From NCBI GenBank assembly GCA_038143065.1, contig JAYQLI010000035.1, forward strand, positions 1,632,894-1,696,893: a stretch of DNA of 64,000 nucleotides, written 5' to 3'. Shown one piece after another: positions 43,172 to 57,811 of the stretch (its first letter is position 1; each line of letters opens with the position of its first letter). A model generated the notes under the pieces. It searched no databases. It was not told the origin of the DNA and worked only from the letters and a program-made list of their open reading frames with translations. The position numbers were made by a program, and so were the translations under genes. The stretch is from Rhodospirillales bacterium (GTDB lineage Bacteria > Pseudomonadota > Alphaproteobacteria > Bin95).

Positions 43172-44007
43172 TTACGCAGACCAGCGCATGCTGACTGCAT
43201 CACTTAATCCGTCCCCAATCAGCATCGCACCGGGGGGTGTGTGATGCAAATAGGTGGACGGGCATTTTGCAGGACGAGCTGAGGAGTAACCCCGCAAGCC
43301 CAAAAAACAGGTACTTCACCTTCTCGAATTTCAACCGCATCACCCCAATCAGGTGCCATCACATCATTGATACCAATGGCACTTGGATCGCCAATGTGCA
43401 GTGGGGCTCCATGAGCAGCCTTGAAGCGTGATGTAATTTCAATAGCCTTCAATGCGTCTGATGGTTTCATAGGGCGCATTGAACATACTGTATTGCCAGT
43501 GAATGCGCCAACTGGCCGACATGGGATATTGGTAGCGTACATTGGGACAGTTGCCCCTGTCTCGATATGCCTGAGGCCAATGCCGGCTTTCATAAGGGCA
43601 TCCTCAAAACTAAAGGAACAGCCAAGCACAAATCCTACATAATCATCCTGCCAAAGGGCACTAATATCAGACACTGTCTCCGATAATTCACCATCTCTAT
43701 AAACATTGTAGCTTGGTGCATCCGTGCGAATATCAACATCATCACCCATGTCGGGAAGCATGGGATCACCAGGGGCAGTCATTGCCACTACAGGGCAGGG
43801 CTTTGGGTTTCGATGGCAGAAAATTGCAAATTCAAGGGCCAAATCCTTAGGCAAAACTGCCAAGTTTCCTTGCAGGCGGCCAAGTGCCATCCCAGCAGTA
43901 TGACTAGTATGGATCCCCGCACGGATCAGACGCCGTGCCGCTACAGGCGAAACGCTTGGGTCCTCTGCGCTGTGCTGCGACAATTGAATTGGCTTGGCGA
44001 CGCTCAT
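43172..44007 (-). CDS. DUF1445/D-glutamate-cyclase-like putative hydro-lyase; frameshift near 43232
   Basis: HTAGMA.G..Q.NL, FC.RNPKPCP, DIRTD.P.Y, GCSFSFE, SMRP, HGAP.HIG, PVFWACGVTPQ, ITH.PG.ML; G-run indel near 43232. Confidence 0.88.
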
Positions 44008-45555: not shown

Positions 45556-46841
45556 CTGCCTCGCATTACTGAAAAAACTGCACCTCCAGGCGTTCCGTTC
45601 AATCTACCTTTCTATTACGGATGGGCCATCGTAGCGTGCGCCTTTGCAACAATGGCGGTCGGCGTAAATGCGCGCACGGCTTTCTCCCTTTTATATCCAG
45701 CTATCTTGGCGGAATTTAATTGGGCTCGCGGAGAAACAGCCGGAGCTTTCGCCTTAGGTTTTATTTTCGCTGCCGCAATGGGGCCCTTTACGGGCGCACT
45801 ACTGACACGCTTTGGGCCGCGCGTCGTCATGCCTCTTGGGTCAGTGATGATGGCGGCAGGCATCGCTTCAACGACGTGGATCTCTCAACCCTGGATGCTG
45901 TATCCAAGCTTTGGAATGCTGGTTGTCGGCGGCAGCACCATTCTGGGTTATATCGGCGACAGCGCTACACTGCCGCTGTGGTTTCAGAAAAGACGCGGCC
46001 TTGCCGTAGGAATAGCTTTTGCTGGTGTTGGCGTTGGCGCAATGGTCGTGCTGCCATTAACTTCTTGGATCATTCAGGGAAGTGGATGGCGAGATGCGTG
46101 CTGGGCCATTGCAGCTATAATTATTTTCTCTTAATTCCCCTCAACCTAATCGTACAGCGCCGAAGTCCCGAAGACCTGGGTCTCTTGCCAGATGGAGCAA
46201 ACTCGGAAGCAGTTAAACAAGGGGAAAAACCGAAACCATCCCCAGCGGGCCCTTCACTGCGCGACGCTCTCAAAATGCGAACATTTTGGTTCTTCGCCGC
46301 ATCGACCTTTGGAATGCTTTGGTGCTGGTATGCAGTCCAAGTACACCAAACGCAGTACCTTTTGGATAAAGGTTTTGATCCAGCAATTGCAACCTTGGCA
46401 CTCTCCCTTGTCAGTGTCTTTGGCGTAGCGGGCCAAATCAATGGCGGTTGGATGTCAGACAAATTAGGACGTGAAGGCGCGTGGACTATCGGCTTGCTAG
46501 GGTTTGCAGGCTGCTATGCCGCTTTATTTCTGATGAGCTCAAATACCTCCCCTCTAATTCTGTGGGGAATGGTAATCATGCAGGGCTTAATTGGTTATGG
46601 AGTGACCGCTATCTTTGCCAGCGCTCCAGCTGATGTCTTTCAGGGCAGGAGTTTCTCAACAATCTTTGGAACATTGAGTATTTTCTCATCCCTTGGCGGG
46701 GGAATTGGTCCTTACGTAACCGGTTTAATTTATGACCTAGATGGCGACTACTCTCGCGCATTCCTGATTTGCATTGGGTGGTGCGCCGTAAGCATCCTTA
46801 CAATGTGGCTCGCCGCACCAAGACGGTACAGACGCCGCTAG
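45556..46841 (+). CDS. MFS transporter; frameshift near 46125, start uncertain
   Basis: PFYYGW, EFNWARG, WFQKRRGLAVG, PEDLGLLPDG, GWMSDKLGR. Confidence 0.82.
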
Positions 46842-46846
46842 TACCT

Positions 46847-48043
46847 CTAAATCCCCGAGAGGCTTTTAATGGCATCAGCGCCGTAACCAAGGCCAGATAG
46901 AATTTCTTCATTATGTTGACCGGGTTGAGGTGGCGGTGAAGTTAAGCGGCCACCACCATGCTCAAGTCGAAAACCCGTACTCGCTAACGTCATTGGACCA
47001 AAACGCGTTTCAACAGTTTGCAGTATGTCACGATGCTGAAGCTGAGGATGTTTAACAATCTCATCGATCGTCCAAATCGATGCGCATGGCGCACCCCCAT
47101 CTGTTAAACGCTTTTCCCACCCGACAGCATCATCACGAGCTAGAACGGTTTCGATCTCCATCCTGAGAGCCTGCTCATTTGAAAGTCGATCATCCCAAGT
47201 CTTGAAGCGGGGATCCTCGTTGAGACGCTCTAATCCAAGTGTCTTTAATAGCGCTTCATATTGTCGGTCATTATTGACTGCAAGAAGCAACCAACCATGC
47301 TTTACGCGAAACAAGTTGGCTGTTGGACGACGGCTAACTGCCTGATTTCCCATTTGGCGCTGTTTGTGGCCAGCGACCGTATATTCCGCAACCGCTGGCG
47401 AAAGAAAAGCTAATGTAGCATCCAGCATTGCCACATCCACCATCTGACCTTTTCCAGTATGCGTACGCTGATAAAGAGCACTAGCTACTGCAAAAGCTGC
47501 CGTCATTCCGCCAATAGCATCACACACGGCAAAGCCTGCCCGCGTCGGCCCCATTTCCTCGTGGCCGGTCAAAGACATTATGCCACTCATTGCCTGGATC
47601 TTACCGTCATATGCGGCCGTCTGACTGTCAGGGCCGTTATGGCCAAAGCCGGAAACGGCGCAGTAGATAATCTTCGGATTGATTTGCTTAAGGGCATCAT
47701 AGCCCAAACCCAAACGATCCATCACGCCAGGTCTAAAATTCTCCATGACTACATCAGTTTCAGCAATAAGTTTTTGGCAAACCTCAATGGCTGTTGGATT
47801 TTTTAGATCGAGGGTCAAATTTCTTTTATTGGCATTAACGCAGGCCCACATCGGAGCCATACCCCTCTCCGCCCAATCCGGCGCAGGGGGCGAGAAACGC
47901 ATATCTTCACCGCCAGGTTTCTCGACTTTAATTACATCTGCACCCAGCAATGCAAGCTGATAACTTCCAAAGGGACCAGCAAATACTTGAGTGAAGTCTA
48001 GTATCTTGATCCCATCAAAGGGACGAGCACCTGGCGCCGTCAT
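46847..48043 (-). CDS. Family III (CaiB/BaiF) CoA-transferase
   Basis: GIKILDFTQVFAGP, LGADVIKVE, NANKR..LDLK, ENFRPGVM..LGLGY, SGFG, catalytic Asp region GFAVCDAIGG, PPQPGQH; ATGA overlap with the upstream selenoprotein. Confidence 0.93.
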   Translation of the reverse strand: MTAPGARPFDGIKILDFTQVFAGPFGSYQLALLGADVIKVEKPGGEDMRFSPPAPDWAERGMAPMWACVNANKRNLTLDLKNPTAIEVCQKLIAETDVVMENFRPGVMDRLGLGYDALKQINPKIIYCAVSGFGHNGPDSQTAAYDGKIQAMSGIMSLTGHEEMGPTRAGFAVCDAIGGMTAAFAVASALYQRTHTGKGQMVDVAMLDATLAFLSPAVAEYTVAGHKQRQMGNQAVSRRPTANLFRVKHGWLLLAVNNDRQYEALLKTLGLERLNEDPRFKTWDDRLSNEQALRMEIETVLARDDAVGWEKRLTDGGAPCASIWTIDEIVKHPQLQHRDILQTVETRFGPMTLASTGFRLEHGGGRLTSPPPQPGQHNEEILSGLGYGADAIKSLSGI

Positions 48044-48972
48044 GCAGCATCTCCTTCACGTTTTGCTTTTGCTATTTCCTTTCCCCTATCAAACTCCGCT
48101 TTCAAACGAATGATTTCCTTAGGAGAAAGCTTCTCCACGTTAGAATAATCCTCCTTCCAAGTAGGATTTTCAGACCAACGAATAGGGTTCTGCCAAGTGG
48201 TCATAGGACCAGGTGCATTAGCCAAAAGGTCGAGTGCATAACCAAGGGTTAAATACTGACTTTCCTGATCGTGCGGCCGTCCACTGGGGTTCCCGAGTGG
48301 AAAATCACTGAACAGAAAACGGGGAGCCCCAACGTATTCAACAATATCTTTCGCACAGCCCATAATGACTGTTGGTATTCCTGCTTGCTCTAAAGCTCGT
48401 GCAATCAGACACACGGTCTGATGGCAAACGGGTCAATTAGCAGCTAAGACGGCAACATCCGCCTTATCTTCTTGCGTCCGTCTAACGATTTCTTGGGCAT
48501 CTACCTCGATGGTAACACGGTGACTTCTGTTGGTCGGAGCTCCATGGAACCGAGGTGCCACCTCGCCAATGCGTCCCTCTTCTGCCATTCGCCTCAACAT
48601 AGGCAGCGGGAACCAAACTCCTGGGTCTTCCTGGCTGGTGTGTTTCCGATCTATACCGATGTGAGAAATTCTTAGATCGTGGTCTTCATCACTAGCGCCA
48701 GAGTAGACTTCATAGAATTTAGCCTTTGAGTTGTATGCACTCCACGGGCCCTGATCTCCAGCCTCGGGATTGTAAGGAGCGGCCGTTGTCACCAAAGTAA
48801 CGCGGCTTTCCTGCAAAGGCTTCTTTAGAGGAGAGAACGGGGCATCAGCATAGTGACCCCACTCATAAGGCTTCCCATAACCAAGAGTTACATAGTAGTC
48901 GCGGATCCGTTGCAAGTATCGGATCGGCTGGTCATCAGCTAGCGCAAAGCCGTAAGGGTTGTCATCAGACAT
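48040..48972 (-). CDS. Selenoprotein, glycine/sarcosine/betaine/D-proline reductase selenoprotein B (GrdB/PrdB)-like; Sec (TGA) at 48433-48435
   Basis: ORFs 48433-49188 and 48040-48414 are in one frame separated only by TGA, reading VAVLAAN-U-PVCHQTV (UxxC); PrdB-like features KPLQESRVTLVTTA, FPL..L..M..EG.IG, ARALE.AGIPTV, FP.G.P.G; ATG 48972 after GGAGG; SECIS-like hairpin follows; 310 aa, U180. Confidence 0.88.
48398..48432 (-). promoter_or_regulatory. Bacterial SECIS-like stem-loop directly 3' of the Sec UGA
   Basis: mRNA reads UGA CCCGUU UGC C AUCAGAC [CGUGU] GUCUGAU U GCA CG: perfect 7-bp upper stem, 5-nt G-containing loop beginning 17 nt after UGA, 3-bp lower stem. Confidence 0.78.
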
Positions 48973-49084
48973 TCCAACCTCCTCTCTTTTCATTTGAGAC
49001 CCTACAGCATGTAAAAGTAACTGGAAAAGTGTTTGCTGCTGTGCTTCGATTAAATTTATAACCTCAAAACTGGAGGAAAAGGCC

Positions 49085-49939
49085 ATGACATATCGGCATA
49101 TCGAAGCAACTCCGATCTCAGGTGCGCTCGGCGCTCTAATCACTCGCGCTGATCTCTCCCAACTAAATGACGATGTATTCCAGGACATTCATCAGGCATT
49201 TCTGGAATACCAGGTCATATTTTTTCGTGACCAAGATATCACGCCTGAGCAGCAAATTGACTTGGCACGACGCTTTGGGGAAATCCATCACCACCCCTAC
49301 ATGAAGGGTATGGACGAGTACCCTGACATCTTGGAAATCCTGAAGGAGCCAGGTGACAGTTATACCTTTGGAGCCGCTTGGCACTCAGACCAAATGTTCA
49401 ATCCTTCCCCCGCAAAAGCCACCATGCTTTATGCCAAGGAAACACCCTCAGTTGGCGGGGATACTATGTTCTCGAGCATGTACAAAGCCTATGACGGCCT
49501 GTCGGACGCAATGCGCGATATGCTTAAAACGGTTAAAACGTTCAACGTAGGCGATCGATTTAAAAACATGGGCGGAGGCGCCCGATCAGAGCGTTATGCA
49601 GGCAATCCAAAAATGGCGAATAAGGTTCGCGATCCTGGCAATCTGATTACGGAGTCTCATCACCCACTTTTTAGGACCCATCCCGAAACAGGACGTAAAG
49701 CTCTCTACATAGGCAGTCACACGCAAGGTCTAGAGGGAATGCGGAGTGAAGAAGCAGACCCTATCGTTGACTACCTTAGAACGCATTCAATTAGGCCAGA
49801 GTACTTATGTCGTTTCCAATGGAAACCCGGTTCTTTGGCGCTTTGGGACAATAGGTGCGTCCAACATTACGCGGTTCCCGACTACAATGAACGTCGGCGG
49901 ATGCACAGGATTACTATTGCAGGTGACGTACCAGTCTAG
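49085..49939 (+). CDS. TauD/TfdA family Fe(II)/2-oxoglutarate dioxygenase
   Basis: WHSD, GGDTMF, HPLFRTHPETGRKALY, WDNRCVQH, RRMHRITIAGD. Confidence 0.92.
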   Translation: MTYRHIEATPISGALGALITRADLSQLNDDVFQDIHQAFLEYQVIFFRDQDITPEQQIDLARRFGEIHHHPYMKGMDEYPDILEILKEPGDSYTFGAAWHSDQMFNPSPAKATMLYAKETPSVGGDTMFSSMYKAYDGLSDAMRDMLKTVKTFNVGDRFKNMGGGARSERYAGNPKMANKVRDPGNLITESHHPLFRTHPETGRKALYIGSHTQGLEGMRSEEADPIVDYLRTHSIRPEYLCRFQWKPGSLALWDNRCVQHYAVPDYNERRRMHRITIAGDVPV

Positions 49940-49944
49940 GGCTT

Positions 49945-51675
49945 TTAATTTCCTCTGAGAGCAGCCGTAGCTTTTGCATCTATTTTGCCATCAACATCTA
50001 CAACGACTTTGTAGTGGTCTAGCGCAGCCTCAACGGTAACTAGACCATTGGCTACGTCTCGAGATATAGCGGTGAGGTCACGAGCAGTTGCCTCACCAAG
50101 GCCTCCACCGCCAGGCATCTGCAGAACAAGTCGTTCGCCACTTGGAACAGTCTGTCGTCCCTTACCTTTCAGCACCTGCCCAGATTGCAAACCTATCGTG
50201 CCCACCGCTCCTGAGCCGCCACCATCCCTACCTCTTGGTGGATGAATCACCCGATCAAACATGCTGGAAATGGCAAAAGGCGCACCTTGCGCGTGCTCTA
50301 TTTCCATTATCTGACCAACTCCACCGCGATACTGGCCAGCTCCGCCTGAGTCTGGACGGTATTCCTTCTTCCAGAAAACCAAGGGGGCAATGGTCTCATT
50401 GACCTCTACAGGCGTATTACGCACACCAGACGGAAAGGCAGTTGCATCTAGGCCATCCTTTTCTGGCCTAGCCCCAGCTCCACCCGTATGAAAAACATTC
50501 ATCGCAAAAGGGCGGGCTTGGCCATAATCTCCATCAACAACACCGTGCCCCCCCATAAGAACAGGGTTCCAAAGACACGAAGTGCCCTCCGCAGGGCTCC
50601 TTTCTGGCGCTATCTGATGCAAACACCCCAATACAACATCCGGCAACATCTGCCCTGTCACATGACGGGCGGTAACAGCTGCGGGGTGAGGCGCATTCAA
50701 TATACATCCAGAGGGCGCCGTTATCTTTACTGCCTCCAGAGACCCCGCATTGTTAGGCACGCGGTTACCCACAACACAACGGACACCAAAGCTTGCATAG
50801 GCCTCAGTGTAGGTCATTGGCACGTTAATCCCATAGCCAGAGACAGGTGAAGTGCCGCTAAAATCTACCTCTATCGTATCATCTGTGATCGTCATTGTGG
50901 CAACGATATCAACATGTTTTTCGTAGCCATCTATACGCATAGAATTTTTGTAAACGCCTTTTGGCAACTTTGCGATTTCGTCCGCCATTCCCTTTCGGCT
51001 TGAAGTGATAATGTGTTCAGCGAGAGGCTCAATCGAGGCCATCTCAAACTCATCCATCATCGCAACTAGCCTGCGCGAGCCAACATCATTGCAGGCAACT
51101 AATGAGTAAAGATCTCCCTCGACTTCGACAGGATTTCTATTGTTGGCGGCTATAATATCGAGGACCGTGCGGTTCATACGACCACCCTCAGCCAGCCTCA
51201 TAATTGGGATGTTGATACCCTCTTCATAAACTTGTCGACCATCAGCACCAAAACCCCTGCCACCAATGTCTGCAACGTGCGTAGTACAGGCAAAGAGCGC
51301 CACAATTTCACCATTACGCCATGTGGGGGTTACGACTGTAAAATCATTCAGGTGCCCTGTGCCCAACCAAGGGTCATTGGTAAGGAAAACGTCACCTTCT
51401 GACATCGTCTCCAGAGGAAATTTTTCTATGAAGTGACGGACCGAAGCGGCCATAGCATTCACATGACCAGGCGTACCCGTGACAGCCTGAGCTAACATCC
51501 GCCCGCTCGGATCATAAACCCCAGCAGAGATGTCACCCGCTTCACGTGCGGAAGTTGAGAAAGCTGTTCGAATTAGCGTCTGCGCCTGTTCTTCAACAAC
51601 TGATAGAAGGCGGTTCCATTGGATCTGCATTCCAATACGGTCAAGAACATTAGTTTTAGAGTGAGAACCTGACAT
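49945..51675 (-). CDS. Hydantoinase B/5-oxoprolinase family protein
   Basis: LIRTAFS..ARE.GD, GTPGH, NDPW.GTGHLND, HVADIGG, YEEG..IP, PGGGG.G. Confidence 0.92.
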   Translation of the reverse strand: MSGSHSKTNVLDRIGMQIQWNRLLSVVEEQAQTLIRTAFSTSAREAGDISAGVYDPSGRMLAQAVTGTPGHVNAMAASVRHFIEKFPLETMSEGDVFLTNDPWLGTGHLNDFTVVTPTWRNGEIVALFACTTHVADIGGRGFGADGRQVYEEGINIPIMRLAEGGRMNRTVLDIIAANNRNPVEVEGDLYSLVACNDVGSRRLVAMMDEFEMASIEPLAEHIITSSRKGMADEIAKLPKGVYKNSMRIDGYEKHVDIVATMTITDDTIEVDFSGTSPVSGYGINVPMTYTEAYASFGVRCVVGNRVPNNAGSLEAVKITAPSGCILNAPHPAAVTARHVTGQMLPDVVLGCLHQIAPERSPAEGTSCLWNPVLMGGHGVVDGDYGQARPFAMNVFHTGGAGARPEKDGLDATAFPSGVRNTPVEVNETIAPLVFWKKEYRPDSGGAGQYRGGVGQIMEIEHAQGAPFAISSMFDRVIHPPRGRDGGGSGAVGTIGLQSGQVLKGKGRQTVPSGERLVLQMPGGGGLGEATARDLTAISRDVANGLVTVEAALDHYKVVVDVDGKIDAKATAALRGN

Positions 51676-53774
51676 TAATTCGTCTCCCCCTTGGCTGTCA
51701 TAACAATGTAATCACGCTCATCGATGTGAGCTTGAAAAGTTGAAGCAACGACAGTCGTTGTCTGAGGTTCAACAATGAGGGCGGGGCCAGAGATCCGAGA
51801 ACCAGGCTTCAACTCAAATCTATCGAAAAGACCAGCGGTCACAAATTCTTGCTGCGTCGCGTCGAACAGCTCCCTCGTCTGAGTTGGCGCCGTAAAATCA
51901 GCATCAAGGACCACCTCTTCCAAACTCTTCGAACTCGAAGACTTCCCAGTAGATACAGTCAAAGTCCAGCTAAGAATTTCTGGTTGCATTCCAGGAACAG
52001 TCTGTCCGTAAAGTGCGGTGTAGGCCTCATTAAAACTCTCAAGAAGATTTTGATTATCTTCTTGAACCAAAGGCCTATCTGGTAGCGGCACAGTAATCTC
52101 ATGCCCCTGACCCACATACCGCATGTAGGCGAGGCGCGTTTCTGTAAGTTTAGCTCCAACAGCTCCCGCCTCGACAACAGCCCTAGCCTCACGGCTCATA
52201 TCCTCTAAAAGTCGGTTAGCTCCATTCGCATCAAAACCATCGAGCCTCGTGTAACGGCTTCTAACTACTTCATATGAAATTGGTGCACGAAGAAAACCAA
52301 CGGCAGATCCCACACCCGCTCCACTCGGAACAATTACTCGATTAAGTCCGAGCTTTTCCGCAAGCCTTGAAGCGTGCAAAGGGGCCGCGCCTCCGAAGGC
52401 AATCATTGTCCGTTCAGCAATATCTTTGCCCCATTCAATCGCATGAACGCGCGCCGCATTAGCCATGTTTTCGTCGACGATTTCAGCAATAGCAAAGGCG
52501 GCTAAGGGTGTAGGCATGTTCAGCGGCCTACCAACTTCGGCATGGATAGCATCTCCCGCCTTTTCTGGAACCAAACGAACATTGCCACCAGCAAAGCGCT
52601 CAGGAGAAATTTTTCCCAAGGTGACATCGGCATCCGTTACAGATGGTTGTGTTCCTCCGAGGTCATAGCATGCCGGTCCAGGATGCGAGCCTGCACTTTC
52701 AGGTCCTACTTCAAGACGCCCCATGCCATCGACATGCGCCAAACTTCCTCCACCCGCACCAATCTCAACCATCTCAATGGCAGGAATGCGTACTGGCAAG
52801 CCACTACCTTTTAGATTTCGATAGGCACGTGCAACTTCAAAAGTACGCGTCGAAAGTGGCTGCCCATCGTCAATTAGACAGATCTTTGCTGTAGTTCCTC
52901 CCATGTCATAGGAAACAACACGGTCAAGACCAGCCTCACCAGCCACCTCTGCCGCAAGAATTGCTCCTCCAGCCGGACCCGACTCGACCAACCTGATTGG
53001 AAAACGAATTGCATTTTCTAACGTCGTCAAACCACCGCCCGACGTCATAAGCAAAAAGGGACAATCAAAACCCATGTCCCTTAATCGGGCATCTAGAGCG
53101 GTAAGATAGGCAGCCATTTTGGGCTGGACATATGCATTAGCGCAGGTTGTGGACTGACGCTCGTACTCACGGATCTCTGGACAAACTTCCGAGGAAATCG
53201 AGACAGGCAAATCGGGAAAGGCCGATTTAACAATTTCACGCACCCGTTCCTCATGAGCAGGGTTCGCGTAAGCGTGCAGTAAGCCGACGGCGAGTGCTTC
53301 GATGTGATACTTTTCAATTAATGGAAGAACTGCTCGGACGCTTTCCTCATCCAACTCAATTAATGGATCACCTGCCACATTCATCCGCTCTCGTACTGGC
53401 CAACGCAGCTCTCTCGGAGCCAGTGGCAAAGGACGATCAATCATGATGTCGTACTGCTCGAAACGGTTTTCTAGCGCCATTTCCACAGCATCACGGTGGC
53501 CTTGAGTAGTTAGGAGAGCAATTTTTGCACCTTTACGCTCAATAATGGCATTTGTGGCCAGTGTGGTTCCGTGGATTAGTAGGCCAACAGCACCAGGAGT
53601 GATATTCGCTTCAGCCAACGCCTTTGCAACGCCATCTAAAACGCCCTCCTCTGGGGCGGATGGAGTGGTTAGAACCTTGGCCGTTGTTTGATTACTGCCA
53701 TGCTGCAAGACCACATCAGTAAAAGTTCCACCTATATCAACTGCAAGACGGACGTCACTTTTAGCCGTTGCCAT
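51675..53774 (-). CDS. Hydantoinase A/5-oxoprolinase family ATP-dependent subunit
   Basis: VDIGGTFTD, HGTTLATN, ESGPAGG, DMGGTT, IGAGGGS, GP.SAG..PGPACY, AFGGA, MRYVGQG.E. Confidence 0.93.
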   Translation of the reverse strand: MATAKSDVRLAVDIGGTFTDVVLQHGSNQTTAKVLTTPSAPEEGVLDGVAKALAEANITPGAVGLLIHGTTLATNAIIERKGAKIALLTTQGHRDAVEMALENRFEQYDIMIDRPLPLAPRELRWPVRERMNVAGDPLIELDEESVRAVLPLIEKYHIEALAVGLLHAYANPAHEERVREIVKSAFPDLPVSISSEVCPEIREYERQSTTCANAYVQPKMAAYLTALDARLRDMGFDCPFLLMTSGGGLTTLENAIRFPIRLVESGPAGGAILAAEVAGEAGLDRVVSYDMGGTTAKICLIDDGQPLSTRTFEVARAYRNLKGSGLPVRIPAIEMVEIGAGGGSLAHVDGMGRLEVGPESAGSHPGPACYDLGGTQPSVTDADVTLGKISPERFAGGNVRLVPEKAGDAIHAEVGRPLNMPTPLAAFAIAEIVDENMANAARVHAIEWGKDIAERTMIAFGGAAPLHASRLAEKLGLNRVIVPSGAGVGSAVGFLRAPISYEVVRSRYTRLDGFDANGANRLLEDMSREARAVVEAGAVGAKLTETRLAYMRYVGQGHEITVPLPDRPLVQEDNQNLLESFNEAYTALYGQTVPGMQPEILSWTLTVSTGKSSSSKSLEEVVLDADFTAPTQTRELFDATQQEFVTAGLFDRFELKPGSRISGPALIVEPQTTTVVASTFQAHIDERDYIVMTAKGETN

Positions 53775-53864
53775 TCCGCACACCTTCCCTCAGAAGAAAT
53801 TCCGCGCCAGACTGTCGCCTGATGCGCATTGGAGCGCAAGTTTTTGTAGACGAAAAAGGTTAAC

Positions 53865-57723: not shown

Positions 57724-57811
57724 TGGTGCGGTCGAGAAGACTCGAACTTCCACGGGATATTATCCCACAGCGACCTCAACGCTGCGCGTCTACCAATTCC
57801 GCCACGACCGC
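57724..57811 (-). tRNA. tRNA-Leu (anticodon GAG), encoded CCA
   Basis: Reverse complement GCGGTCGTGGCGGAATTGGTAGACGCGCAGCGTTGAGGTCGCTGTGGGATAATATCCCGTGGAAGTTCGAGTCTTCTCGACCGCACCA folds into a cloverleaf with long variable arm and TTCGA T-loop. Confidence 0.96.

What the first reader, a model, noticed from the sequence alone, without database searches (positions are those of the whole stretch)
46847..49939. Candidate new system: stand-alone Sec 'reductase B' translationally coupled to a family III CoA-transferase, divergent from TauD
Seen: the selenoprotein stop overlaps the CoA-transferase start (ATGA, 48040-48043), and a TauD gene is transcribed divergently about 110 bp away. No PrdA/GrdE pyruvoyl proprotein, GrdA, GrdC/D or thioredoxin system appears in the window. 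Established: PrdB/GrdB normally work in anaerobic Stickland complexes, where Sec attacks a C-N bond of an activated substrate. Inference: CoA-thioester formation might replace pyruvoyl activation, allowing Sec-mediated C-N or C-S cleavage of an onium or imino-acid substrate (betaine-, carnitine-, proline- or sulfonium-type) in an aerobe. I know of no described pathway with this pairing; the substrate is unknown.
Basis: inference. Interest (0 to 1): 0.8.

Follow-up and report, generated by a model that had tools for sequence, protein, structure and literature searches.

The report
Selenoprotein B-like reductase with dedicated CoA-transferase
A real selenocysteine gene of the long-known but still function-less "PrdB-like" family sits in a two-gene unit with its own CoA-transferase, a pairing that recurs in many bacteria and gives a first testable clue to what this abundant family does.

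Summary
Window 48040-48972 (-) encodes a 310-aa GrdB/PrdB-family protein. It has one in-frame TGA (48433-48435) in a U-P-V-C motif and a SECIS hairpin. Its stop overlaps the ATG of a family III CoA-transferase (ATGA, 48040-48043). A TauD-family gene diverges 112 bp upstream. The genome has selA, selB, selD and tRNA-Sec. No PrdA/GrdE or GrdA match was found.

The selenoprotein itself is not new. It belongs to the "PrdB" UxxC family reported from ocean metagenomes in 2005 and 2008, and this scan has met it before on other DNA. Most homologues carry Cys.

What looks undescribed is the linkage. Seeding on the transferase, 29 of 35 metagenome orthologues (>=50% identity) have the GrdB-like gene directly upstream, against 0 of 35 paralogues. 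In 401 sampled genomes of the class, all 8 with the transferase orthologue also have the GrdB-like gene, and 6 are adjacent. The reverse does not hold: only 5 of 42 dereplicated GrdB-like groups have an adjacent transferase. Nineteen protein clusters fuse the domain to an acyl-CoA synthetase. The TauD link is confined to four loci.

A CoA-thioester-dependent reductive cleavage is plausible but untested.

The parts
48040..48972 (-). Gene for a 310-aa stand-alone GrdB/PrdB-family selenoprotein (here called GRDBL). It starts at the ATG at 48972 behind a GAGAGGAGG ribosome-binding site.
   Evidence: Homologues of about 310-320 aa are 63-69% identical over the full length. The AlphaFold model has mean pLDDT 90.8.
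48433..48435 (-). In-frame TGA read as selenocysteine (U180) in the motif N-U-P-V-C-H-Q.
   Evidence: The same column is Cys in 13 of 13 aligned homologues. Among 80 genome loci it is TGA in 15, and TGC or TGT in 64. selA, selB, selD and tRNA-Sec are present.
48404..48422 (-). SECIS-type hairpin: AUCAGAC-CGUGU-GUCUGAU, a 7-bp stem with a 5-nt loop, starting 13 nt after the U of UGA.
   Evidence: Read. The same hairpin (6-7 bp) is present in 15 of 15 TGA-form loci. In 62 of 64 Cys-form loci at most 2 bp can form at that place, even where the encoded peptide is identical.
46847..48043 (-). Family III CoA-transferase (398 aa), translationally coupled to the selenoprotein gene.
   Evidence: Pfam CoA_transf_3, E 1e-115. 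It is below every NCBIfam equivalog cut-off. The closest solved relatives are formyl-CoA transferase, YfdE and succinate-hydroxymethylglutarate CoA-transferase. Asp175 is invariant.
48040..48043 (-). ATGA overlap: the stop of the selenoprotein gene and the start of the CoA-transferase gene.
48973..49084 (.). 112-bp divergent intergenic region between the selenoprotein gene and the TauD-family gene.
   Evidence: An alignment with the three related loci shows only the ribosome-binding site as clearly conserved.
49085..49939 (+). TauD/TfdA-family 2-oxoglutarate dioxygenase (284 aa), transcribed divergently.
   Evidence: Pfam TauD, E 5e-67. The taurine dioxygenase equivalog scores 229.9 bits against a cut-off of 313. 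Orthologues 81-82% identical sit in the same divergent position in L015-L017.

Best explanation
The locus is a two-gene operon. It encodes (i) a genuine selenocysteine-containing, stand-alone member of the GrdB/PrdB (Pfam GRDB) family and (ii) a family III CoA-transferase dedicated to it.

Shown here: UGA-180 has a conserved SECIS hairpin, and the genome has the full Sec machinery. The genome has no match to the pyruvoyl subunit (PrdA/GrdE) or to GrdA, the canonical reductase partners. The transferase orthologue is almost always next to, and always co-occurs with, a GrdB-like gene. The same domain is fused to acyl-CoA synthetases in other bacteria.

Inferred: the transferase converts a small carboxylate into its CoA thioester. 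Its nearest solved relatives handle oxalate, succinate or glutarate, so the substrate is probably a substituted dicarboxylate-like acid. This acid would carry a leaving group on the alpha carbon. Sec180 then attacks that carbon and expels the leaving group, which could be an amine or sulfite. Cys183 resolves the selenoether as a Se-S bond and releases the shortened or unsubstituted acyl-CoA. A general thiol system such as thioredoxin re-reduces the Se-S bond. This is GrdB/PrdB chemistry in which the thioester stands in for pyruvoyl activation and for GrdA/GrdC.

My odds: real selenoprotein about 0.95; functional coupling of the two genes about 0.8; the reductive C-alpha-X cleavage of an acyl-CoA about 0.3. 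The confidence given is for the whole statement.
For: Sec decoding:
- One in-frame TGA lies at the Cys column of the family.
- The hairpin is present in 15 of 15 TGA forms. In 62 of 64 Cys forms at most 2 bp can form there.
- selB, selD, selA and tRNA-Sec are present.
- Metatranscriptome contigs of four studies cover the gene. Two of them span the TGA.

Coupling:
- The genes overlap in ATGA.
- A 57-63% identical transferase lies directly downstream in 31 of 80 genome loci, and a 33-34% identical one in 2 more.
- This adjacency needs at least 4 gains or losses on the GrdB-like tree.
- Seeding on the transferase in metagenomes: of 35 orthologues (>=50% identity) with at least 300 nt of upstream sequence, 29 have the GrdB-like gene directly upstream. 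Of 35 paralogues (<50% identity), none has.
- In 401 evenly drawn genomes of the class, 8 have the orthologue (>=52% identity). All 8 also have the GrdB-like gene, which is present in only 26 of 401. Six of the 8 are adjacent, all as TGA forms.
- Two further, different family III transferases (32-34% identical) follow the gene in L067/L081 and in G560.
- RNA-library contigs of two studies bridge the gene junction.

CoA theme:
- 19 of the 30 longer proteins found are seamless acyl-CoA-synthetase + GrdB-like fusions of about 800 aa.
- An enoyl-CoA hydratase lies directly downstream in the sister clade, 4 loci, with an acyl-CoA ligase 2.7-3.7 kb further on in two of them.

Not canonical:
- No PF09338 or PF04723 match in the genome.
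- PrdB and GrdB equivalog scores are far below their cut-offs.

Other:
- In the model, U-P-V-C sits at the N-terminus of helix 181-196, after strand 173-177.
- A thioredoxin reductase exists elsewhere in the genome.
- The organism can respire oxygen: it has COX1.
Against: - No substrate, product or reductant was tested. The chemistry is extrapolated from GrdB/PrdB, whose mechanism I recall rather than tested.
- The GrdB-like gene usually stands alone. At 90% identity, 29 of 42 groups have no adjacent CoA enzyme, 5 have the transferase adjacent, 2 have it nearby, 2 have an enoyl-CoA hydratase, and 4 loci are too short to judge.
- One Bradyrhizobium genome and one Ramlibacter genome carry the gene while their best transferase match is only 35-37% identical.
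- The window's three closest relatives lack the transferase downstream.
- The two genomes of the window's own family have the transferase orthologue (57-67% identical) unlinked.
- Twelve stand-alone orthologues of the fused acyl-CoA synthetase have no GrdB-like gene within 1.5 kb.
- A second kind of fusion is to a kinase-like domain, not a CoA enzyme.
- Fold searches gave only generic Rossmann-like matches, best Z 9.6, so the structure adds nothing on function.
Confidence: 0.35

Rival explanations
1. The GrdB-like protein is a general UxxC/CxxC thiol-selenol oxidoreductase. Its core job has nothing to do with CoA esters; it might be a redox or repair function on a small disulfide or a protein. 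The CoA-transferase, ligase, hydratase and kinase partners are lineage-specific add-ons or mere operon neighbours.
For: Most loci are monocistronic and lie among housekeeping genes such as SLT, ClpA/ClpS, Lnt-YbeY-PhoH-MiaB and cbb3 oxidase. At 90% identity, 29 of 42 groups lack any CoA neighbour. Some genomes lack the transferase orthologue. The 2005 Sargasso Sea paper lists the family among thiol-dependent redox selenoproteins with a UXXC motif (passages read).
Against: The transferase orthologue is found only together with the gene, in 8 of 8 genomes, and is mostly adjacent to it (29 of 35 and 6 of 8). Three different family III transferase groups were recruited next to it. There are 19 seamless acyl-CoA-synthetase fusion clusters. 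A purely generic redox protein would not be expected to gather carboxylate-activating partners repeatedly.
Confidence: 0.3
2. The unit serves organosulfonate or sulfur scavenging. The leaving group is sulfite rather than an amine; for example, a sulfo-carboxylate such as sulfoacetate is activated to its CoA ester and reductively desulfonated. The divergent TauD-family dioxygenase is a co-regulated partner.
For: TauD-family orthologues (81-82% identical) sit divergently beside the gene in the window and in L015-L017, in otherwise different surroundings. The second Sec-containing GrdB-like paralogue of this genome lies near a TauE/SafE sulfite exporter and a molybdopterin (sulfite-oxidase-type) oxidoreductase. 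The transferase's nearest solved relatives act on small dicarboxylates, which sulfo-carboxylates resemble (inference).
Against: In the 401-genome class sample, 4 genomes other than the window's have the TauD orthologue (>=55% identity). In none of these 4 is it next to the GrdB-like gene. No TauD was found in the 80 transferase-seeded metagenome loci. The genome has at least 25 TauD paralogues, so some proximity is expected by chance. The TauD scores below the taurine dioxygenase cut-off.
Confidence: 0.15
3. It is an ordinary component B of a Stickland-type D-proline, glycine, sarcosine or betaine reductase whose partners lie elsewhere.
For: There is Pfam GRDB and PrdB/GrdB-model similarity and a UxxC motif.
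Against: No PrdA/GrdE or GrdA match was found in a 97.6% complete genome. PrdB scores 82 bits against a cut-off of 300, and the subfamily model TIGR01918 scores 58.7 against 65.45. The protein has family-specific N- and C-terminal extensions around the PrdB-like core, residues 45-251. The host has a haem-copper oxidase and many oxygen-dependent dioxygenases.
Confidence: 0.02
4. The TGA is a true stop, so the gene is split or dead and there is no selenoprotein.
For: By table 11 the frame is interrupted. A third GrdB-like copy in this genome does look degenerate.
Against: Conservation continues at full strength past the TGA. The SECIS hairpin is specific to TGA forms. The Sec machinery is complete. 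TGA occupies the same column in 15 other genome loci and in 5 further adjacent pairs of the class sample.
Confidence: 0.02

Closest known systems
Marine 'proline reductase PrdB' UxxC selenoprotein family (Zhang, Fomenko and Gladyshev 2005, PMC1088965; Zhang and Gladyshev 2008, PMC2398784)
   Same: Both show Pfam GRDB homology, Sec in a UxxC motif, a bacterial SECIS, occurrence in aerobic marine or estuarine bacteria, and Cys homologues. The window stretch is itself held by estuary and marine metagenomes. The 2005 paper counts 42 such genes in the Sargasso Sea, and the 2008 paper 235 in GOS (passages read).
   Different: In the passages I read, those papers list the family and its motif but give no function, no partner and no gene context. 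I did not compare the window protein directly with their sequences. The conserved CoA-transferase partner and the ligase fusions are added here.
D-proline reductase PrdB with PrdA (Clostridium sticklandii, C. difficile)
   Same: It is the best NCBIfam model hit (TIGR04483, E 4e-23, residues 45-251) and shares the UxxC active-site motif. The Sec-Cys reductive C-N cleavage chemistry is presumed to be the same (recalled).
   Different: The score is 82 bits against a cut-off of 300. No match to the pyruvoyl subunit PrdA was found in the genome. The protein has about 45 extra N-terminal and 60 extra C-terminal residues. The host is aerobic. The partner is a CoA-transferase.
Glycine/sarcosine/betaine reductase component B (GrdB/GrdF/GrdH) with GrdA, GrdC and GrdD
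   Same: The C-terminal domain is homologous (TIGR01917/01918, NF040794/5; E 1e-13 to 5e-16) and carries Sec in UxxC.
   Different: Only the C-terminal 200 or so positions of the roughly 430-aa GrdB models match. No GrdA or GrdE match was found. If the hypothesis is right, the product would leave as an acyl-CoA instead of acetyl phosphate.
Family III CoA-transferases of the YfdE / formyl-CoA transferase / SUGCT group
   Same: Full-length Pfam match. E-values of 4e-69 to 1e-63 to solved members. The conserved Asp aligns with the family's conserved Asp.
   Different: It is below every equivalog cut-off (best 269.9 against 750). It forms its own orthologue group, about 60% identical from Bradyrhizobium to this genome, defined by its position behind a GrdB-like gene.

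Membership tests
Pfam GRDB (PF07355) | Score at or above the gathering threshold | tested here: met
   26.8 bits against a cut-off of 22; residues 47-177 match model positions 217-345.
D-proline reductase PrdB (TIGR04483 equivalog) | Score at or above the curated cut-off | tested here: not met
   82.1 bits against 300.
Glycine/betaine/sarcosine/D-proline reductase selenoprotein B subfamily (TIGR01918) | Score at or above the curated cut-off | tested here: not met
   58.7 bits against 65.45.
Canonical Prd/Grd reductase complexes | Pyruvoyl proprotein PrdA/GrdE encoded in the genome | tested here: not met
   No PF09338 match in the 97.6% complete genome. The family rang in none of the 14 control genomes, so the search's sensitivity is unverified.
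Canonical glycine reductase complex | Selenoprotein A (GrdA) encoded in the genome | tested here: not met
   No PF04723 match, with the same caveat about the controls.
Canonical Prd/Grd reductase complexes | GrdC/GrdD or PrdC encoded in the genome | not tested
   No search was run for these families.
GrdB/PrdB-type selenoproteins | Sec (or Cys) in a UxxC motif | tested here: met
   U180-P-V-C183. The column is Cys in 13 of 13 aligned homologues. The UxxC motif for GrdB and PrdB is taken from the review PMC13188914 (passages read).
Marine 'PrdB' UxxC selenoprotein family (2005/2008 surveys) | GRDB homology, UxxC with Sec, and a SECIS downstream | tested here: met
   Direct comparison with the papers' sequences was not done.
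Bacterial selenoprotein gene | SECIS hairpin shortly after the UGA, specific to UGA forms | tested here: met
   The window has a 7-bp stem starting 13 nt after the UGA. The hairpin is present in 15 of 15 TGA forms. In 62 of 64 Cys forms at most 2 bp can form there. No Rfam family matched the region at gathering score.
Bacterial selenoprotein gene | selA, selB, selC and selD present in the genome | tested here: met
Family III CoA-transferase (PF02515) | Full-length domain and conserved catalytic Asp | tested here: met
   387 bits, model positions 2-366 of 366. Asp175 is invariant in 22 orthologues and aligns with the conserved Asp of three solved members. The catalytic role of that Asp is recalled, not tested.
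CaiB (L-carnitine CoA-transferase) and other named transferase equivalogs | Score at or above the equivalog cut-off | tested here: not met
   CaiB 131.4 against 413; succinate-glutarate 269.9 against 750; oxalate 260.6 against 522.
Taurine dioxygenase TauD (NF007104 equivalog) | Score at or above the equivalog cut-off | tested here: not met
   229.9 against 313. The Pfam TauD family itself is met, E 5e-67.

The most novel reading that the evidence does not exclude
The abundant stand-alone 'PrdB-like' Sec/Cys proteins of aerobic marine and soil Proteobacteria are the catalytic core of a minimal reductase that needs no pyruvoyl subunit, GrdA or GrdC. A carboxylate with a heteroatom on C-alpha is first made into a CoA thioester. 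Candidates are glycine, an N-substituted glycine such as sarcosine or betaine, or a sulfo-carboxylate such as sulfoacetate. The activation is done by a dedicated family III CoA-transferase or by a fused acyl-CoA synthetase. The Sec/Cys-Cys pair then reductively cleaves the C-alpha-N or C-alpha-S bond and yields acetyl-CoA (or another plain acyl-CoA) directly. This would be an oxygen-tolerant counterpart of Stickland reductases.
Probability: 0.2. Interest if true: 0.85.

Novelty: new variant of a known kind. Interest (0 to 1): 0.6.

Why it matters
The 'PrdB' selenoprotein was the third most abundant selenoprotein family in the Sargasso Sea survey (42 genes) and among the top families in GOS (235 genes). 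I found no function for it in the papers read or in the library searches.

The family is large. At least 585 stretches in species-representative genomes encode a relative.

A conserved, dedicated CoA-transferase partner and recurrent acyl-CoA-synthetase fusions turn 'unknown redox protein' into a bench-testable hypothesis: offer acyl-CoA substrates plus a thiol reductant. Natural Cys forms in culturable Bradyrhizobium make the test easy.

If the reductive C-alpha-X cleavage is right, it would add an aerobic route for breaking C-N or C-S bonds of osmolytes or sulfonates. It would also explain why selenium is spent on this enzyme in the ocean.

Tried and rejected
- Complex prediction. Every time the queue was full. 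The job never ran, so there is no result of any kind on binding.
- Sequence search of solved structures with the family profile: nothing meaningful, best E 0.32.
- Foldseek against PDB: no match with E <= 0.001.
- VIA-align wide search: only generic Rossmann-like, LacI-type and SDR folds, best Z 9.6 with rmsd 3.0 over 133 residues. No conclusion on fold novelty or function can be drawn from this.
- Rfam at gathering score: only one tRNA in the window.
- Single-sequence MFE fold of the SECIS region: z -1.87, and it did not pick the conserved hairpin. The comparative test replaced it.
- Protein atlas: the recoded protein was not accepted. The natural Cys homologue P0059 returned only its own family.
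- Apparent CoA_transf_3 'fusions' P0282, P0297 and P0299, and the LysR 'fusion' P0295, are frameshifted gene calls, not fusions.
- Several 50%-cluster representatives are likewise frameshift junk.
- The NHL (P0281) and Cpn60 (P0300) 'fusions' were not examined.
- I looked for a third conserved gene next to the pair and found none. Upstream genes differ between contexts.
- The intergenic alignment with L015-L017 shows no clear operator.
- The promoter and terminator scan was no better than shuffled sequence.
- Stand-alone orthologues of the fused ligase: 12 of 12 loci have no GrdB-like gene within 1.5 kb.
- RNA-run contigs cannot show transcript ends, strand or expression level.


Full report
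**1. What is in the sequence**

On the minus strand, table 11 gives two ORFs in the same frame, 48433-49188 and 48040-48414, separated by a single TGA at 48433-48435. With TGA read as Sec the frame is continuous. The likely start is the ATG at 48972, directly behind GAGAGGAGG. That gives a 310-aa protein with the motif A-N-U-P-V-C-H-Q-T-V-C. Its stop TGA (48040-48042) overlaps the ATG (48041-48043) of a 398-aa ORF at 46847-48043, so the ATGA overlap is real.

A 284-aa ORF on the plus strand (49085-49939) starts 112 bp from the selenoprotein start. Pfam names the three proteins GRDB (26.8 bits, cut-off 22), CoA_transf_3 (E 1e-115) and TauD (E 5e-67). NCBIfam places the first nearest to PrdB (E 4e-23, 82 bits against a cut-off of 300). 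It is below the cut-off of every selenoprotein B model. The transferase and the dioxygenase are also below every equivalog cut-off.

The flanking genes converge on this unit: a hydantoinase B/A pair at 49945-53783 (-) and an MFS transporter at 45720-46841 (+). The operon is therefore just the two genes.

**2. Is the TGA a selenocysteine codon?**

Yes, with high confidence. Four lines of evidence agree.
- The genome has selB, selD and selA above their cut-offs, and a tRNA-Sec with anticodon tca.
- In an alignment with 13 full-length homologues the TGA column is Cys in all 13, and conservation continues undiminished to the C-terminus.
- Among 80 loci from species-representative genomes the same codon is TGA in 15, TGC in 56 and TGT in 8. 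In one locus, L070, my pattern did not find the motif.
- Thirteen nucleotides after the U of UGA the window can form a 7-bp hairpin with a 5-nt loop (48404-48422). The same hairpin, 6-7 bp, is present in 15 of 15 TGA-form loci. Among 64 Cys-form loci, 62 can form at most 2 bp there, one forms 4 bp and one forms 7 bp. This holds even where they encode the identical peptide HQTVSL with other codons.

Contigs assembled from metatranscriptome libraries of four studies (salt marsh and seawater) cover the locus at mostly 90-95% likeness. Two of them span the TGA. Such contigs show presence in RNA libraries, not a transcript.

**3. What family is it, and is that known?**

The family is very large. 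The best 120 are 63-69% identical and 305-348 aa long. At least 585 stretches in the genome collection encode a relative. The family is nevertheless tight: most members fall into a single 50%-identity cluster.

Earlier notes of this scan pointed me to two papers, of which I read passages.
- Zhang, Fomenko and Gladyshev 2005 (PMC1088965) list 'Proline reductase PrdB' with a UXXC motif as the third most abundant selenoprotein family of the Sargasso Sea.
- The GOS analysis (PMC2398784) lists 235 selenoprotein and 110 Cys sequences.

Neither passage gives a function or a partner. A 2026 review (PMC13188914, passages read) treats only the canonical GrdB and PrdB. The selenoprotein as such is therefore known, and the scan has met it before on other DNA.

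It is not a canonical Stickland component. No match to PF09338 (PrdA/GrdE) or PF04723 (GrdA) exists in the 97.6% complete genome. Those families rang in no control genome, so the sensitivity of the search is unverified. GrdC/D and PrdC were not searched. The host has a haem-copper oxidase and at least 25 TauD-family dioxygenase paralogues, so it lives with oxygen. A thioredoxin reductase is present 1.24 Mb away.

**4. Is the CoA-transferase linkage conserved?**

This is the core of the finding, and the answer depends on which gene one starts from.

*Starting from the GrdB-like gene* (the 80 best genome loci):
- A transferase lies directly downstream in 33 loci. It is 57-63% identical to the window's in 31 of them and 33-34% identical in 2.
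- A transferase lies 2-6 kb away in 2 loci.
- An enoyl-CoA hydratase lies directly downstream in 4 loci.
- Nothing CoA-related is adjacent in 37 loci.
- Four loci are too short to judge.

Many of these loci are Bradyrhizobium. Dereplicated at 90% identity, the 81 rows (window included) form 42 groups: 5 with an adjacent transferase, 2 with one nearby, 2 with the hydratase, 29 with none and 4 too short. On a careful maximum-likelihood tree the adjacency needs 4 gains or losses, and 4 in all bootstrap trees.

The window's own clade is the window plus L015-L017 (support 100/98). In it only the window has the transferase. The three relatives have housekeeping genes downstream. Whole genomes can hold the gene without the transferase orthologue. 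One Bradyrhizobium genome and one Ramlibacter genome have best transferase matches of 35% and 37%.

*Starting from the transferase* the picture is sharp. I scanned metagenome contigs with the transferase alignment and kept loci with at least 300 nt of upstream sequence.
- Of 35 loci whose transferase is at least 50% identical to the window's, 29 have a GrdB-like gene directly upstream. One more has it 1 kb away.
- Of 35 loci with 38-46% identical paralogues, none has one.
- The 16 of these GrdB-like genes that show the motif all carry Cys.

In an evenly drawn sample of 401 genomes of the class:
- The GrdB-like gene is present in 26 (22 of 308 genera).
- The transferase orthologue (>=52% identity) is present in 8.
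- All 8 also have the GrdB-like gene.
- In 6 of the 8 the two genes are adjacent, with gaps of 29-189 nt (overlapping in the window). All 6 are TGA forms.
- The two exceptions are the two genomes of the window's own family.

In one of those exceptions, G560, the GrdB-like gene is instead followed by a different family III transferase (32% identical). It sits in a cluster with an SDR and a PrpD/MmgE-family gene. Another different transferase (33-34% identical) follows the gene in L067 and L081. No third gene is conserved beside the pair.

My reading: the transferase orthologue is a dedicated accessory of the GrdB-like protein, while that protein also works without it. RNA-library contigs of two studies bridge the junction of the two genes.

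**5. Further links to carboxylate activation**

A search for longer proteins found 30.
- Nineteen are clusters of about 776-829 aa (one partial, 694 aa) that combine an AMP-binding acyl-CoA-synthetase domain with a C-terminal GrdB-like domain. The one I read, P0277, runs seamlessly from one domain into the other and keeps N-C-P-V-C-H-Q. Its N-terminal half scores best with fatty-acid and acyl-CoA ligase models.
- Four clusters of about 655 aa carry a C-terminal kinase-like domain: Pfam fructosamine-kinase/APH, with a weak hit to methylthioribose kinase.
- Three apparent CoA-transferase fusions and one LysR fusion are frameshifted gene calls. They only confirm adjacency.

The fused ligase also exists as a stand-alone orthologue. 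None of 12 such loci has a GrdB-like gene within 1.5 kb, and no listed match in 401 genomes of the phylum spans both halves. The fusion is therefore real but confined to few lineages.

**6. The TauD link**

TauD-family orthologues (81-82% identical) sit divergently beside the gene in L015-L017, whose other neighbours differ from the window's and from each other. In the class sample the TauD orthologue (>=55% identity) occurs in 4 other genomes and is not adjacent in any of them. None appears in the 80 transferase-seeded loci. The link is real but narrow.

A hint in the same direction comes from this genome's second Sec-containing GrdB-like paralogue (441 aa, motif V-U-P-N-C). It lies near a TauE/SafE sulfite exporter, a molybdopterin oxidoreductase and an enoyl-CoA hydratase.

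**7. Structure**

With a 35-sequence alignment, AlphaFold gives a confident model (mean pLDDT 90.8, pTM 0.90). U180-P-V-C183 sits at the N-terminus of helix 181-196, after strand 173-177. This is the usual place of a redox-active CxxC (recalled). No solved structure is close:
- The sequence profile search found nothing.
- Foldseek found nothing at E <= 0.001.
- The wide structural search gave only generic Rossmann-like folds, best Z 9.6.

The transferase is an ordinary family III enzyme. Its conserved Asp is in place, and it is closest to formyl-CoA transferase, YfdE and succinate-hydroxymethylglutarate CoA-transferase.

**8. How it most likely works**

*Shown:*
- It is a Sec enzyme of the GrdB/PrdB family.
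- The genome has no match to the canonical partners PrdA/GrdE or GrdA.
- It has a dedicated CoA-transferase, or in other lineages a fused ligase.

*Inferred:* the partner makes the CoA thioester of a small acid that carries a leaving group on C-alpha. Sec180 displaces that group. Cys183 resolves the selenoether to a Se-S bond and releases the plain acyl-CoA. A general thiol system re-reduces the enzyme.

Whether the bond is C-N (glycine-type substrates) or C-S (sulfo-carboxylates) cannot be told from sequence. The main rival is a CoA-independent redox role, favoured by the many stand-alone loci.

**9. Novelty and literature**

I found no paper that links this family to CoA-transferases or ligases. 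The searches were:
- 'PrdB-like / GrdB-like / selenoprotein B-like';
- 'selenoprotein B + CoA-transferase + Bradyrhizobium';
- 'PrdB + CoA transferase + selenoprotein';
- 'GrdB + CoA-transferase + homolog';
- 'reductase selenoprotein B + Proteobacteria + aerobic + unknown function';
- 'PF07355 / IPR010187 / COG5275 / glycine reductase family protein'.

The library does not hold most subscription journals, and I saw no supplements.

**Verdict:** a known selenoprotein family with a newly documented, conserved functional context, that is, a new variant of a known kind. The mechanism is a hypothesis.

Noticed in passing
Own genome G000:C35:2092095-2093420 (L187:4596-5921, minus strand): A second GrdB-like selenoprotein gene: about 441 aa by the longest frame, with one in-frame TGA in the motif L-P-V-U-P-N-C. 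It is 34% identical to the window protein. It lies between an enoyl-CoA hydratase and a Zn-dependent dehydrogenase, near a TauE/SafE sulfite exporter, an amidohydrolase and a molybdopterin oxidoreductase.
   Followed up: partly
Own genome G000:C35:2335039-2335840 (L188:5039-5840, minus strand): A third GrdB-like copy. It has TGA in *PVCHQTVSL, but its N-terminal half is in another frame and contains an in-frame stop. It is probably a pseudogene or an assembly error. It lies beside DinB_2 and histidine-specific methyltransferase (EgtD-like) genes.
   Followed up: partly
Whole genome G000: The genome is unusually rich in paralogues. tblastn finds at least 40 family III CoA-transferase loci (best 45% identical to the window's) and at least 25 TauD-family loci in 4.6 Mb.
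   Followed up: no
Genomes behind L015 and L017 (G003, G004): These relatives carry 4 and 5 GrdB-like genes respectively, each with one in-frame TGA. The family has expanded as selenoproteins within single genomes.
   Followed up: no
window 49945-53783 (-) and 43219-44007 (-): The window holds a hydantoinase/oxoprolinase B+A pair (best but sub-threshold match: caprolactamase) and a D-glutamate-cyclase-family 'putative hydro-lyase' on either side of the operon. A 56% identical hydro-lyase homologue also lies 2.5 kb from the GrdB-like gene in G560 (L190:11317-12066).
   Followed up: partly
P0272-P0275 (about 655-660 aa), from the protein database: Seamless fusions of an N-terminal GrdB-like domain (Cys form) with a C-terminal kinase-like domain: fructosamine-kinase/APH in Pfam, with a weak methylthioribose-kinase match. 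They may point to a second, phosphorylation-based way of activating the substrate.
   Followed up: partly
L020, L021, L043, L072 (sister clade of the window's clade): A conserved same-strand run of NHL-repeat, SMP-30/gluconolactonase-like (in 3 of the 4), glyoxalase/VOC, Sec GrdB-like and enoyl-CoA hydratase genes, with an acyl-CoA synthetase 2.7-3.7 kb further on in L020 and L021. An NHL-repeat gene also follows the GrdB-like gene in L087.
   Followed up: no
G414:C14:7282-8193 and G634:C125:3216-4127 (class sample): GrdB-like matches lie inside open frames of 809 and 777 aa with no stop. They are probably acyl-CoA-synthetase fusions in assembled genomes.
   Followed up: no
window 57727-57811 (-): A tRNA gene, the only Rfam match in the window at gathering score.
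   Followed up: no
G000:C35:594751-596061 (selA match): The selA match is reported with one TAA inside the matched span. This may be only the boundary with the adjacent selB gene.
   Followed up: no
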